Shown here: piece by piece, positions 11,760-17,475 of the stretch
Layout: each line of letters starts with the position of its first letter
How positions within the stretch are numbered: position 1 is the stretch's first letter
Assembly: GCF_001447785.1 (NCBI RefSeq)
Contig: NW_015173751.1
Coordinates: forward strand, 18,875 to 82,874
Length of the DNA: 64,000 bases
Direction: 5' to 3'
From: Gekko japonicus
Lineage: Eukaryota
The notes under the pieces: model-generated
Databases searched by the model: none
What the model was told of the DNA's origin: nothing
The model's input: only the letters and a program-made list of their open reading frames with translations
Position numbers and translations under genes: made by a program

Positions 11760-12680
11760 AAAAAATGTTTTAAAAAATCCCTGGTTTGTTTATAGATCTT
11801 AATTGTTAACTTATTCAGAAAAAAATGTTTAGGATGTATTGGACACCACAGCAACTCTTTTGTAAAGGATTGAACAGAAGTGTTTAATTGTTGGCAATGT
11901 AAATCACAGAGCGTATCCCTTAAACTTATGCTTTGGGTGTGTCCAATCATTCAGGTTTTTTGGGAGGAAGTTACAGAACAAAGTTTGAGTCTACTGGCTC
12001 CTTTAAGACCAACAAAGTTTAATTCTGGGTATAAGTGTTGTATTAGAATGTTCATTGATTTTTGAGTATGATTATATACTTTTAGAACAAATTTAGACTC
12101 CAGTGGCATCTTTAAGACCAACAAAGGTTTATTCAAGGTATGAGGTTTTGTGTGCATGCACACTTTGATAAAGTTTGATAAAATTTGAGAAAGTGTGCAT
12201 GCACATGGAAGTTCATACCTTGAATAAACCTTTGTTGGTCTTAAAGGTGCCACTGGAGTCTAAATTTGTTCTACTGCTTCAGACCAACATGGCTGCCCAC
12301 CTGGATCTATATACTTTTAAACTGTCTGCCTGTCTCTTGGAGGCTGATGGTGAACAAAAATGGACCCTCTGTAACCTTACTATAGCTAAAAGACTTGTAC
12401 TACAACACTGGAGAGATAAATGCCCACATCTTGTAAATCAATGGACTGAGGACCTTACAACTTTATCCATATTTGAACATATGGCATATAGACAATTATG
12501 TATGGACATATTTTTAGATATTTGGAAATTTTCTACAGCAGTTTATGAGAAGATCTGCCACCACTGTTATACTTTTTATTTCTACTCTGTGTGTGTGTGT
12601 GTGGGGGGGTCCTCTCTCTTTTTAATTTGTTCTTTATTTGAAAGAAATGATTTTTTTAAAAAAAATGTTTTTAAAAATTA
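11760..12680 (+). mobile_element. L1-clade LINE 3' fragment (ORF2 zinc knuckle and C-terminus), interrupted by Penelope ends
   Basis: CWQCKSQSVSLKLMLWVCPIIQVFWEEV, then after the insertion IAKRLVLQHWRDK...QWTEDL; A-rich end near 12660-12680. Confidence 0.75.
11973..12307. mobile_element. Penelope-like element termini in inverted arrangement
   Basis: ~12082-12165 is the near-perfect reverse complement of ~12190-12273; a third partial copy lies at 11973-12035; decayed hammerhead gtgtgcatgcacatggaagttcata. Related fragment at ~49593-49678. Confidence 0.75.
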
Positions 12681-12802
12681 GCGGCCATGATGGCATGACT
12701 GCACTTCCATGAAAAACCTGGAAGGGAAGTCAGTCCACTCTAGTAATTGCTGGAAACTCTATGGTGTGCCTAACAACCCTGCCTTCATTGTTGCTGAATA
12801 AT

Positions 12803-12865: not shown

Positions 12866-13076
12866 TGCCTGGCCAAATGGTTGGATCCTATTTCATTTTC
12901 CAGATAAGAGCCATGGTCCCAATCTAAATTAAGTTCCTACAGGGAATCTGCAATAGCTGTTTGACTGCCAGTCTCCTTGGAAGTCACATGGTAGATGTCA
13001 TGCGTAATTCAGGTTTGAGTGGAAAGGGGTAGTGGAAGCTTTCTGTGGCATGAAGGTAAATAAATGACCTGATCAT

Positions 13077-14724
13077 GGGGGGCGTGGCAGCTGTCCTTCT
13101 GGTCGGCTGCAGCTCTACCGCTCTCCTGCTATCCCCGATAGAAAATAATGCTTAGCTCCTCAACAAACAAAGTAATTTTGTTAAAACTTGCAATGCCAGA
13201 CATGGGAAGGACTGGGGGGGAGGAGCTAGAAACCTGCCTTATAAACCACCGAGGAAAGGCACTATTGACTAGGAAGAATCAGACCAAGAGACTTCTTTGC
13301 TTGAAGAAATGGCGGCAGTGGGAGGAAAACTAGACCAAAGTTATCAGGCTCCAATTGCACAGGCATTAACAGAAATAAAAGAAGAAATAAAAAGTTAGAT
13401 TAAAAACTTTGAGTTGTGATGTCAGGCAATTAAGGAAGGAATTCACACAGCTTAAGCTCGTAATTAACCCGATAAATCAAAAATTGGACGAACTTACCTC
13501 ATCTGTGAAAACAATGGGGGGGAAAGCAGAATCCACGTTTCAAATTGCCAGAAAAGCGGCTGATGATTTGTTGGAGTTACAAGAGTTTGAAAAGTGGGCT
13601 AAGAAAAAAATTATCCTTCAAGAGACCAGGTTAAGAGAAAGAAAAGCGAAACTCCATGGAGTTTCCTCCAACTTTTGTACGACAGGAGATCTTAAAGAGG
13701 AACTAAACAAATAGCTCCAGCAGACTCTTCAATTGGTGGGAGACGCAGAGACTTCAGAAGAGATAATAACCTCGGCCAGGGCTCCCGTAGGCATCTCGGC
13801 AGATATTATTGTGGAGTTCAAGGAGCTACAGACTAGAAACAGACTTTTTAAAATAGCACGAGAAAAACAAGGTCTGGCCCTTGAAGATACATGTGTTTTT
13901 TTGTATGCTGACATCATGCCAGAGGTCCTTATTGCGAGACAAAGACTATGTGAAACAGCAAAGACATTGAGAGAAAAAGAGATCCCTTACAGATGGTTAG
14001 TGCTTGGCCACCTGGTGGTCAATATAAATAATAAAAAGTTTTCAGCACATAATGAGACAATGGGTAAAAAGTTAGTGGAGGTTGTTATTAAACTGAAGGA
14101 AGGAGGTGTTTGAAGGGAATAATGTGTTCTGGCATTGATATTTAGGTTATAAAGTGAGCATGAAAAAATAACTGAAAGTTGGGTTTATTAGTATAGGAAA
14201 AGATTTAAACTTTAAATATTATTAAGCAAGAATGTTATACAAGTGTAAAGTGATAGATTAGGGTATAGCAAGGAGGCATAGAGTGTGCCCCCCTCTAAGA
14301 CCTCCAGTATAGGGTGGGAGGAGGTTTCCCCTCCCACTGTAGAGTCCTTCTCTTCAGCACCCATAATTGGAGGCAACTCCTTCCAACTTTTCTTTTCAGG
14401 AACAGAAGAGGATGGGTAGTAGAAATTGATGCTGGAATGAACTGAAGATAAGGAATGTATTAAGGATAATTATAAGTTTTGGGGGAAGTTGTATGGGGAC
14501 CTAATTAACTGGTAAGATAGGGACATAAGAAAGGAGGAGGGATTAAACGAGATCAAAAAGGATTGGGTTGATGACATAGTAACCTCGGGGGACTTTTTCT
14601 TTTCTTTTTTTGCTTGGTTATCACTTGTGTTAAAAAGATTGAAAATGAGTATATCAACAAGATGCTTAATGAATTGTGTGTATGTAGATTGATAGATATA
14701 CTCAATTAAAAATATTAGTTAAAA
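13077..14724 (+). mobile_element. ORF1-only L1 derivative (HAL1-like), apparently full length with TSD
   Basis: GGGGGGCG start; degenerate ORF1p ~13194-14113 (coiled coil, ETRLRERKAKLHGV, ADIIVEF, FLYADIMPEVLIARQRL, LREKEIPYRWL); ~610 bp non-coding 3' region; ATTAAA and A tail; 15-bp TSD aaatg(a/t)cctgatcat at 13062-13076 and 14725-14739. Confidence 0.85.
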
Positions 14725-14789
14725 AAATGTCCTGATCATTGCTTGCAGATCACACTGATATTGAAGGAACACTTAGAGGGACCAGTATA

Positions 14790-14827
14790 GACTGGCTTTC
14801 GAGCAAGGGAACCTTTACCTTTACCTT
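14790..14827 (+). mobile_element. Sauria SINE 3' stub with (ACCTTT)n tail, between two copies of a 140-bp duplication
   Basis: gactggctttcgagcaagggaacctttacctttacctt matches the 3' end of the Sauria SINE at 58262-58296 (reverse complement). Confidence 0.85.
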
Positions 14828-17475
14828 TATATCAACAAGATGCTGAATGAATTGTGTGTATGTAGATTGATAGATATACTCAATTAAAAATATTAGTTAA
14901 AAAAATGTCCTGATCATTGCTTGCAGATCACACTGATATTGAAGGAACACTTAGAGGGACCAGTATAAATGTTGACAACTTTACCACAGAGTGGTATATG
15001 AGCAGTGGAGTTTTGACTTGTTTGTAGCTTTTGTTCTCAAGCAGGAGTGCTATTGTGCCTGTTGGCAAGGGGAGAAGAGGGTCTATCCATTTCCTACCCC
15101 AGACAACACAACAGGCTAAATCCTCTCCAGACTGTGCCTATGATACAAATTTTTCTGGTTACTGACATGCGTTGACATTCAATTCAACATGCTGGTTCTT
15201 ATGATACAAATTTTTCTGGTTACTGACATGCTTTGACATTCAATTCAACATGCTGGTCCATAAAGCTCTATGTGGTCTGAGCCCCATATTTATTTATTTA
15301 TTTAGGAAAAAAACCAACCCTCTATCCAGAAACCTACCTAAAGCAGCTTACAATATCTCTGCCCTATGAATCTTTGTTTCACTTTAGATTTTTTCTGAAC
15401 TTTCTACTGAGTGTCCCATCTCCAAAATCCTTGAAATCTGCTACAGATCAGGTATGTTCCCGATCAGGTGATCTTTGGAACATTTTTCCAGAGGAGGTCA
15501 GGAAAGCATTTAGCTTGCTGGAGTTCTAGAGACATTGCAAAGTCTTATTGTTTTAAATATTCAAGATGTTTTGGCAATAGAGTAAGCAAAGATATAAGTA
15601 ACCGTAGATTAGATGTTTGGAAGCACTTGCATCACCAAGAATCATGTGTCCAAATTATGTGTTTCCAAACTGTGGCATCCATAAATAATCAATTTTGTCC
15701 TTCTAAAAATTAGAGTTTGGGATCCTAATTGCAGAACTGGAAATCAAGACCATATATCCTTAGGCTAAATACTACACTAAGGGCACACTTGGTAATGTAT
15801 CATAAACCAGAGGATCTAAATAAATAATGCAGATACATGTGATTTATGTATCATACTTGTGAATATGGTAGGTGTCAAAGTATAATGTACTGTAATAACT
15901 GTCTATACATTTTTATTTCATCCTTCCATTAAGGAGCTCAGAACAGAAAACATGGTTCCCCCGTACACACATTTTGTCCTTGCCACAGCTCTGTGAGTTA
16001 AATTAGCCTGAGATAGAATGACTTGCCCAAGTTTACCCTGTGAACTTCGTGGGCGAATGGTGATTTGAACCTATGTCTCTCAGATCCTAGTCCAACACTT
16101 GAACTGTTATGCAATATTCTGGTGTGTTACGTGGTAACCAAAACTGCCACATCATAATGGAAAGAGGAGTGTAAATGGATAAGATGTGGGGTGCTAGACT
16201 GGATTTTTTTAAAAAAAGGAAACAATTTACAAGTTTCTGATAAGAGTATGTACATTGCAGGTTATACAGTTCTGATGTAATGTAATATACATACCCTTTT
16301 AATTTCTCTGTTTCTGAATTTCAAATATATATTCTCTCCCTTGGCTCATGAATACATATGACTGTGTCTAGTTTTACTGAGACAGAAAATAGCCTGGCAT
16401 AGCTATATGGATAGCTCTGGTATTTGTGTGCTGGATAGGAAAAGAATTTTTCATTTCATACATCATTTACAAAGTGCTATATCTTTTCAATAATGTCACT
16501 CTATATACCAATTCCTAAAGAAACAGACCTGACTGCTCTACTGGTGTAAAAAGGGGATTCTATATACCAATTCCTAAAGAAACAGACTGCTCTACTGGTG
16601 TAAAAAGGGGGTAGCTTTGTGGAAGTCAATAGAGAGACACAAACTTACATCAAATGAGGGTCAGACCAAATGACAATATAAAAGAAAAAGAAAGAGAGAC
16701 TTTCCCCCCAGGGTTTGTCTAAATTCTGCATTGCTCCTGCACGTCCTCACCTTTTTCACAGCATGCTGTCTGAGCTTTGGCACCTACCAGTGATCCCAAG
16801 TGAATGCCAAGGGACTGCAATTTCATGCCGTCTTCACATTATGTCTATGTCCTTTCGATTGGCATCTTTTCTCCTTGGTCCAAAAGGAGTTGTGCACAAA
16901 ATATTGGCCCCTATGAAATACCGGTGCCTCTGCCTTACAATGCTGCCAGCAACAAGTAAATAAGGCCAGGCCAAATGGCATCAGCGTCAGAGCACATTTG
17001 TCCTCATACACAAGTGACAAAGAGAGCAAAGGAAGTGGATGAACAAGTGGTGGCAGGTTTCCATCACTCTTGTAGTGGTAAAACAGCAGCAATACCAGTA
17101 ACTGCAACAGAACTAGTAGCAGGCCTTCTCGCAAGCTGCATGATGCCAGTGGAATGCTGGTGGAGCTGGAGGCAGAGGTGCTAAGCCGCCCCCCTGAGCT
17201 TCTGTTGCCTGTCACTGCTTTTTTAAAAAAGCAGTTACAGGCATTATGATGTCACTTCTGGGGAAAACTGAGGCATGACAGTGGCACTGTAGCTTTAGGA
17301 ATTTCTAGAAATTCTATTGTTTTATGCAGCCCCCTTTCTTTATGTCTCCACCCCCCAACCATTTTGTTGAGCTTGGCAACCCTAGCAGAAAGACTATAAG
17401 ACAGGGAAGTAATTTTGTGCCATTCCACAGCCAAGTACGGTAGCCAGTTGAAGCTAACCCCCCACCCAGAAGATT

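What the first reader, a model, noticed from the sequence alone, without database searches (positions are those of the whole stretch)
13062..14739. Complete ORF1-only L1 derivative (HAL1-like) in a squamate
Seen: a 1.65-kb unit bounded by a 15-bp TSD (one mismatch), with a G-rich 5' end and a ~300-codon ORF1p showing coiled-coil, RRM and CTD-type motifs (13409-14113 is one frame with a single TAG). It is followed by ~610 bp with no endonuclease or RT similarity, a hairpin (gtgggagg...cctcccac, ~14313-14336), ATTAAA and an A tail. Known: HAL1 elements encode only ORF1p and rely on L1 ORF2p in trans; I know them mainly from mammals. Inference: an independent reptile half-L1 lineage, or an L1 transcript polyadenylated in a long inter-ORF spacer.
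Basis: partly seen in the sequence, partly recalled or inferred. Interest (0 to 1): 0.7.

Follow-up and report, generated by a model that had tools for sequence, protein, structure and literature searches.

The report
Active reptile half-LINE-1 retrotransposon lineage
This is a broken copy of an old reptile jumping-gene family that carries only LINE-1's RNA-binding gene plus a conserved stretch predicted to fold as RNA, likely borrows its copying enzyme from complete LINE-1s, and has a young branch with an insertion that is present in some animals and absent from this genome.

Summary
Confirmed and extended. Window 13077-14727 is a decayed copy (three stops, two frameshifts) of a dispersed 1.65-kb family encoding only an L1 ORF1p. 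All 40 scored copies of its 3' part end at the same tail. 21 of 23 full-length copies have their own target-site duplication (control 3 of 150). None of 122 ORF1-bearing loci continues into an ORF2 start. ORF1 evolved under purifying selection (dN/dS about 0.2-0.3 on shared branches) across many subfamilies down to about 50% protein identity. Its 5'UTR and ORF1 are closest to long-spacer ('clade 2') reptile L1s. It works like mammalian HAL1 but arose independently. Borrowing of ORF2p is inferred, not shown. I found no paper on squamate HAL1 (Repbase not searchable). This scan already noted HAL1-like elements elsewhere in this genome and in rays.

The parts
13062..13076 (+). 5' target-site duplication (15 bp)
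13077..13192 (+). 5'UTR, 116 nt, GGGGGCGTGG start; aligns by eye with clade-2 L1 5'UTRs; likely holds an internal promoter (untested)
13193..14113 (+). ORF1 (L1 ORF1p: coiled coil, RRM, CTD; lacks the ~30-aa basic C-terminal tail of clade-2 ORF1p); broken here by 3 stops, 2 frameshifts, 21-bp deletion
14114..14255 (+). AT-rich, poorly conserved first part of the 3'UTR (mostly 39-48% identity between distant subfamilies)
14256..14410 (+). Conserved block, predicted multi-branch RNA: outer stem 14301-14306/14368-14373, GGG/CCC stem, hairpin 14314-14337, hairpin 14337-14357; ends in a pyrimidine tract plus AG/G at 14398-14400
14411..14704 (+). Remainder of the non-coding 3'UTR
14705..14727 (+). 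Poly(A) signal (ATTAAA; AATAAA in most copies) and short A tail
14725..14739 (+). 3' target-site duplication (one mismatch)
14790..14827 (+). Later insertion: 38-bp 3' end of a Sauria SINE, (ACCTTT)n
   Evidence: 100% to other copies; PMC13295347 passages
14828..14967 (+). Second copy (99%) of 14650-14789; likely an unusually long duplication made by the SINE insertion

Best explanation
The locus is a dead copy of a non-autonomous, ORF1-only retrotransposon family that likely arose once from a long-spacer (clade-2) reptile L1 by loss of ORF2, and that likely spreads by coating its own RNA with its own ORF1p and borrowing an L1 ORF2p in trans for target-primed reverse transcription. Shown: shared termini, individual TSDs, 5' truncations, no ORF2, selection on ORF1, L1 ORF1p homology, a recent insertion polymorphism. 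Inferred: the ORF2p donor (most likely clade-2 L1s, several of which have open 1246-1297-codon ORF2 frames here), cis action of ORF1p, and a cis-acting role of the conserved 3'UTR fold (my best guess: it helps capture or position ORF2p on the RNA).
For: All 40 scored hits to the 3' 630 bp run to the tail. TSD in 21 of 23 copies with both ends vs 3 of 150 mismatched pairs. EN-profile search behind ORF1: 2 hits in 104 loci, both beyond the family's tail and lacking the ORF2 start; 0 of 18 more; 1 of 60 block-selected loci, the same place as one of the two (clade-1 and clade-2 profiles); control 24 of 29 L1 loci. Copies sit inside L1 ORF2 as discrete inserts (L033, L039/L065). 86 copies: 804 syn/582 nonsyn changes on branches with 3 or more tips vs 1025/1958 on tips, dN/dS 0.21-0.29 vs 0.55-0.75, low in coiled coil, RRM and CTD alike; pairwise 0.15-0.26 for 11 of 12 pairs with a measurable dS. 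ORF1p 23-31% identical to clade-2 ORF1p (best E 8e-37) vs 20-33% over shorter stretches and best E 1e-5 to clade-1 type; one clade, support 99, long stem (quick tree). Young subfamily: three identical intact ORF1p, 0-0.6% DNA divergence; site L290:1514-1526 empty in G000, filled in runs X1 and X2 (both junctions, 13-bp TSD) and X14 (5' junction). RNA reads 99% or more alike: 98, 13 and 152 in three runs. 5'-inverted copies with TSDs (L142, L264).
Against: No experiment shows trans-mobilisation or which ORF2p acts. No autonomous parent closer than 31% in ORF1p was found, and searches return only the top 134-150 (protein) or 40 (DNA) candidates, so a rare ORF2-bearing relative could be hidden. 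Downstream sequence was short or gapped for a few loci (L059 53 nt; L038, L122 mostly N). The 3' region shows no similarity to 20 fetched clade-2 L1 regions beyond the CAATAAAA/A-tail end. Tip branches have dN/dS below 1, so the tip/internal split is imperfect. RNA reads are few, on both strands, and may be read-through. Folding z-scores are modest (-1.1 to -2.5; window copy -1.45).
Confidence: 0.88

Rival explanations
1. The copies are 5' halves of a still-existing long-spacer L1, repeatedly polyadenylated in the spacer; selection on ORF1 reflects the autonomous parent.
For: Clade-2 L1s here mostly have 500-850-nt spacers, like the ~600-nt 3' region; lizard clade-2 L1s have short 5'UTRs and long G-rich spacers (PMC5381506, passages). 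The block ends in a splice-acceptor-like motif; one clade-2 spacer has a 19/20 match to it (L203/L224, E 0.045-0.17, not significant).
Against: 0 of 122 ORF1 loci and 0 of 60 block loci lead into an ORF2 start. A parent would leave many 5'-truncated and full copies in every subfamily, including the young one; none was seen. Block absent from 20 clade-2 regions.
Confidence: 0.05
2. ORF1p is kept mainly because it acts on autonomous L1 particles (hetero-oligomerising to hijack or suppress them), not as a cis chaperone of its own RNA.
For: Kojima 2018 suggests such proteins multimerise with autonomous counterparts (PMC5786205, passage). The coiled coil is as constrained as RRM/CTD, and the basic tail is lost.
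Against: Only 23-31% identity to candidate partners; RNA-binding-side residues are kept (R249 80 of 85, K225 81 of 84). No binding test was run.
Confidence: 0.2
3. The conserved 3'UTR block is a regulated intron end (3' splice site) or stability element rather than an ORF2p-recruiting structure.
For: Pyrimidine tract plus YAG/G kept in nearly all of 54 aligned copies.
Against: No joints in three RNA runs, at low depth; deletions in young copies L047 and L063 do not have GT-AG ends; none of 30 loci chosen by the downstream part showed an upstream piece of the element joined at that AG, though two start 4-7 nt before it.
Confidence: 0.25
4. Domesticated host gene (L1TD1-like) with retro-pseudogenes.
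For: Intact, identical ORFs under purifying selection.
Against: Many successive and parallel subfamilies, each copy with its own TSD; intact copies are near-identical recent insertions; polymorphic insertion.
Confidence: 0.02

Closest known systems
HAL1 (half-L1) of mammals (Smit 1999; Bao and Jurka 2010, not held; known here from passages in PMC5753468, PMC3627910, PMC5786205, PMC4161310, PMC8535693)
   Same: Non-autonomous L1 derivative encoding ORF1p only; long-maintained coding capacity (guinea pig 29-44 Myr per PMC3627910); inferred cis ORF1p plus trans ORF2p.
   Different: Squamate host; closest to non-mammalian clade-2 L1; several parallel subfamilies; insertion polymorphism; conserved covarying 3'UTR block, not mentioned in the passages I saw.
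Lizard clade-2 L1 (Boissinot and Sookdeo 2016, PMC5381506; passages and section 10 read)
   Same: Short G-rich 5'UTR, ORF1p family, CAATAAAA plus A tail, TSD lengths. Assignment of the G000 elements to clade 2 rests on architecture (short 5'UTR, long spacer), not on a tree with the published sequences.
   Different: No ORF2; ORF1p only 23-31% identical and about 30 aa shorter at the C-terminus; 3' region not alignable.
HeT-A (Jockey clade) and Ag-Sponge (CR1 clade) (PMC5786205, passage)
   Same: ORF1-only non-autonomous LINEs.
   Different: Different LINE clades and ORF1p types; insects.
L1TD1 (PMC4161310, passages)
   Same: L1 ORF1p-derived ORF under selection.
   Different: Single domesticated mammalian gene; this is a mobile multicopy family.

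Membership tests
HAL1-type (half-L1) elements | Encodes an L1-type ORF1p | tested here: met
   (Pfam alone weak: E 0.063)
HAL1-type (half-L1) elements | No ORF2 (EN/RT) in any copy | tested here: met
   0 of 122 and 0 of 60 loci lead into an ORF2 start
HAL1-type (half-L1) elements | Amplified as a unit: shared ends, A tail, individual TSDs | tested here: met
HAL1-type (half-L1) elements | ORF1 coding capacity maintained by selection | tested here: met
HAL1-type (half-L1) elements | Mobilised in trans by L1 ORF2p | not testable with these tools
   Indirect only: 10-19-bp TSDs mostly starting with A, A tails, 5' inversions
HAL1-type (half-L1) elements | Arose by internal deletion keeping the L1 5' and 3' parts | tested here: inconclusive
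   5'UTR resembles clade-2 5'UTRs; at the 3' end only the signal/tail motif is shared
Mammalian HAL1 lineages (common descent) | ORF1p nested in mammalian L1/HAL1 | tested here: not met
   Human ORF1p pairwise E 0.01-0.02 vs resident clade-2 L1 E 8e-37; no mammalian HAL1 sequence was in the tree
Autonomous clade-2 L1 | ORF1, long spacer, then ORF2 | tested here: not met
Known structured RNA families (Rfam, tRNA) | Match of the element or its 3'UTR block | tested here: not met
   best Rfam E 1.1; no tRNA in 5 loci

The most novel reading that the evidence does not exclude
A long-lived, currently active squamate half-L1 lineage that has evolved (or kept from an extinct parent) a dedicated multi-branch RNA structure in its 3'UTR which captures L1 ORF2p in trans; it would be a natural, testable model of how an ORF1-only parasite beats L1 cis preference, with 5' inversions clustering at the structure as a footprint.
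Probability: 0.3. Interest if true: 0.75.

Novelty: new variant of a known kind. Interest (0 to 1): 0.56.

Why it matters
HAL1 elements are described, in the papers I could see, as mammalian and largely historical; the need for cis ORF1p was inferred from sequence. Here an independent reptile lineage has intact identical copies, a segregating insertion and candidate partner L1s with open ORF2 frames in the same genome, so the cis-ORF1p/trans-ORF2p model and the function of a conserved 3'UTR fold can be tested directly. It also suggests that ORF1-only derivatives are a recurrent fate of L1 across vertebrates.

Tried and rejected
Pfam on the window fragments gave only coiled-coil noise. The search for homologous proteins: none at E 0.001 or better for P0001; the alignment search covered only 30-51-residue proteins and is uninformative. 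Splicing at the conserved AG: no support. tRNA or Rfam origin of the block: no; ribozyme-like folds were considered by eye from recalled consensus and dropped. The 1033-aa 'open frame' at C12859 is an assembly gap. Zero stops on internal branches is partly by construction (stops were penalised) and is not used as evidence. The careful tree did not finish; the quick tree is cited and test_one_clade was not run. No run holding the element is on record as RNA among the indexed holders. X1's 47-nt record across the empty site is too short to count as bridging. No complex prediction was run. Literature: searches listed no paper on reptile HAL1; the primary HAL1 paper, Repbase and Dfam were not available, and no supplements were read, any of which could already list this family. 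Sequence look-ups in earlier scan notes found no look-alike.

Full report
Observation. The unit is as described: a 15-bp TSD with one mismatch (13062-13076, 14725-14739), a GGGGGG start at 13077, ATTAAA at 14705 and A7. 13409-14113 is one frame with one TAG. Alignment with 13 relatives places the ATG at 13193 and shows more damage upstream: a 4-bp loss near 13221, TAG at 13270 and 13396, one extra base near 13400, and a 21-bp in-frame deletion near 13777. The copy is 5-7% from its three nearest relatives. It is dead.

It is a family. The 3' 630 bp gave 164 candidates in G000 (2.49 Gb); all 40 scored run to the same tail, one in two pieces. The ORF1 C-terminal part gave 9,004 loose candidates, 150 scored, at 50-100% identity; copy number is not established. 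Of 23 copies in which my patterns found both ends, 21 have a TSD, against 3 of 150 mismatched flank pairs. Two copies interrupt an L1 ORF2.

No ORF2. An endonuclease profile built from this genome's L1s hit 24 of 29 control loci but only 2 of 104 ORF1-bearing loci (109 examined, 5 without ORF1; known duplicates removed, a few local duplicates remain). Both hits lie beyond the family's own tail: L138 is a 5'-truncated L1 lacking the start of ORF2, L070 a 45-residue scrap. Eighteen further loci gave none. Sixty loci chosen by the 3'UTR block gave only the L070 place again; a clade-2 profile gave the same result on all three sets. A few loci had little or gapped downstream sequence.

The protein. 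An intact relative (P0001, 306 aa) scores weakly in Pfam (Transposase_22, E 0.063), but a 108-sequence profile hits human ORF1p at E 4e-32. The model (pLDDT 88) has a 94-residue helix, an RRM and a CTD and matches the human ORF1p structures first (E 5e-9). Resident L1s with abutting ORFs are distant (best E 1e-5). Resident L1s with short 5'UTRs and mostly 500-850-nt spacers, the architecture of lizard clade 2 (PMC5381506, passages and section 10), are closer (23-31%, best E 8e-37), begin with GGGGGCG and align by eye over the 5'UTR. In a quick tree the 16 family rows plus two unnamed library proteins form one group (support 99) on a long stem; the family lacks the roughly 30-residue basic tail of clade-2 ORF1p.

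Selection. In 86 copies with at least 200 alignable codons (of 121), branches with three or more tips carry 804 synonymous and 582 non-synonymous changes, tips 1025 and 1958; dN/dS is 0.21-0.29 against 0.55-0.75 depending on the transition bias assumed, and about 0.24 in coiled coil, RRM and CTD. Pairwise values from the young copy are 0.15-0.26 for 11 of 12 pairs with measurable dS (0.52 for the closest), with dS near 2 between the deepest subfamilies. The tree shows many subfamilies, some successive, some parallel. I did not date them in years.

Recent activity. Three loci encode an identical intact ORF1p; young copies differ by 0-0.6%, and 12 of 40 scored hits match the full 326-bp query at 97-100%. 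A contig of run X1 joined the element's 5' end to a flank that is unique in G000 and empty there. Laid on that site, X1 and X2 show both junctions with a 13-bp duplication, X14 the 5' junction, and X4 does not cover it (two studies). This is an insertion polymorphism among runs of one species label. Three RNA runs hold few reads, on both strands (234, 16, 214 laid): compatible with transcription, not proof of promoter activity.

The 3'UTR block. A ~150-nt block (window 14256-14410) was found near full length in 103 loci. It is 58-70% identical between distant subfamilies, against 39-48% just upstream and 41-61% downstream. On 54 copies, a 22-pair structure has 96% of cells paired and 8 pairs with two-sided changes (0 of 500 shuffles; slid controls 2-5 pairs). 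Relatedness inflates such counts, I chose the structure from these sequences, and four of the eight rest on one or two copies; the strongest are columns 55-125 and 96-110. Folding z-scores are -1.1 to -2.5. Rfam has no match; a covariance model finds nothing better than E 0.17 in 20 clade-2 regions and 6 clade-1 loci. The block ends in a conserved pyrimidine tract and YAG/G, with no sign of splicing. Of seven mixed-strand loci, four look like simple 5' inversions (L023, L061, L142, L264; TSD seen for the last two) and all four break within about 50 nt of the block's 5' part; three are unresolved. Twin priming is the accepted route to such inversions (PMC2912911, passages). A mere distance-from-tail effect, which I recall for human L1 but did not check, could explain the clustering.

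Mechanism. Most likely the element is transcribed from its 5'UTR, makes ORF1p that packages its own RNA, and recruits an L1 ORF2p through the poly(A) tail, perhaps helped by the block. Anatomy, selection and insertion signatures are shown; the donor and the roles of ORF1p and the block are inferred. Several clade-2 L1s have open ORF2 frames of 1246-1297 codons. Whether ORF2 was first lost by deletion or by spacer polyadenylation cannot be decided.

Known and new. It meets the testable features of HAL1-type elements but is not descended from mammalian HAL1s, which are described as arising several times in mammals (PMC5753468, passage). Eight literature searches listed nothing on reptile HAL1; the primary paper and repeat libraries were out of reach. 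Earlier notes of this scan report HAL1-like elements in three other windows of this genome and in rays; they did not match by sequence, so they may be separate families, and I did not test them. Verdict: new variant of a known kind; interest 0.56.

Noticed in passing
window 14650-14967: A 38-bp Sauria SINE tail sits between two 99%-identical 140-bp copies; if this is a target duplication it is far longer than the 10-49 bp screened in PMC13295347, and it starts with T as that paper reports for Sauria SINE TSDs.
   Followed up: partly
L138 (G000:C4483:295300-300000): Stack of three inserts: L1 3' end, 5'-truncated family copy, then a 5'-truncated L1 whose first bases blend into the copy's A tail.
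   Followed up: yes
L176/L178 (C17451, C12333): Two young truncated copies share at least 388 bp of 5' flank but have different 3' flanks; both lie near assembly gaps; duplication or misassembly.
   Followed up: partly
L232 and L248: Two young copies with different flanks are truncated at the same base (813 of the young reference).
   Followed up: no
L180-L229: Many diverse clade-2-type L1 families with open ORF1 and several open ORF2 frames coexist with clade-1-type L1s (L081-L109) in this genome.
   Followed up: partly
L203/L224 spacer; L205/L225 spacer: TTTTAG/GTACAGAA, like the end of the conserved block, occurs in the spacer upstream of ORF2 in two clade-2 L1s (not significant).
   Followed up: partly
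window 12000-12320: Repeats of ccactggagtctaaatttgttct / ctttaagaccaacaaa in both orientations, resembling a small inverted-repeat element.
   Followed up: no
window 12330-12660: Open frame 12172-12681 ending in L1 ORF2 C-terminal-like text followed by a T-rich 3'UTR; probably an old LINE 3' end (judged by eye; not hit).
   Followed up: no
window 15134-15255: 61-bp tandem duplication (95%).
   Followed up: no
L046/L177, L058, L289: Family pieces on both strands that do not fit a simple 5' inversion.
   Followed up: no
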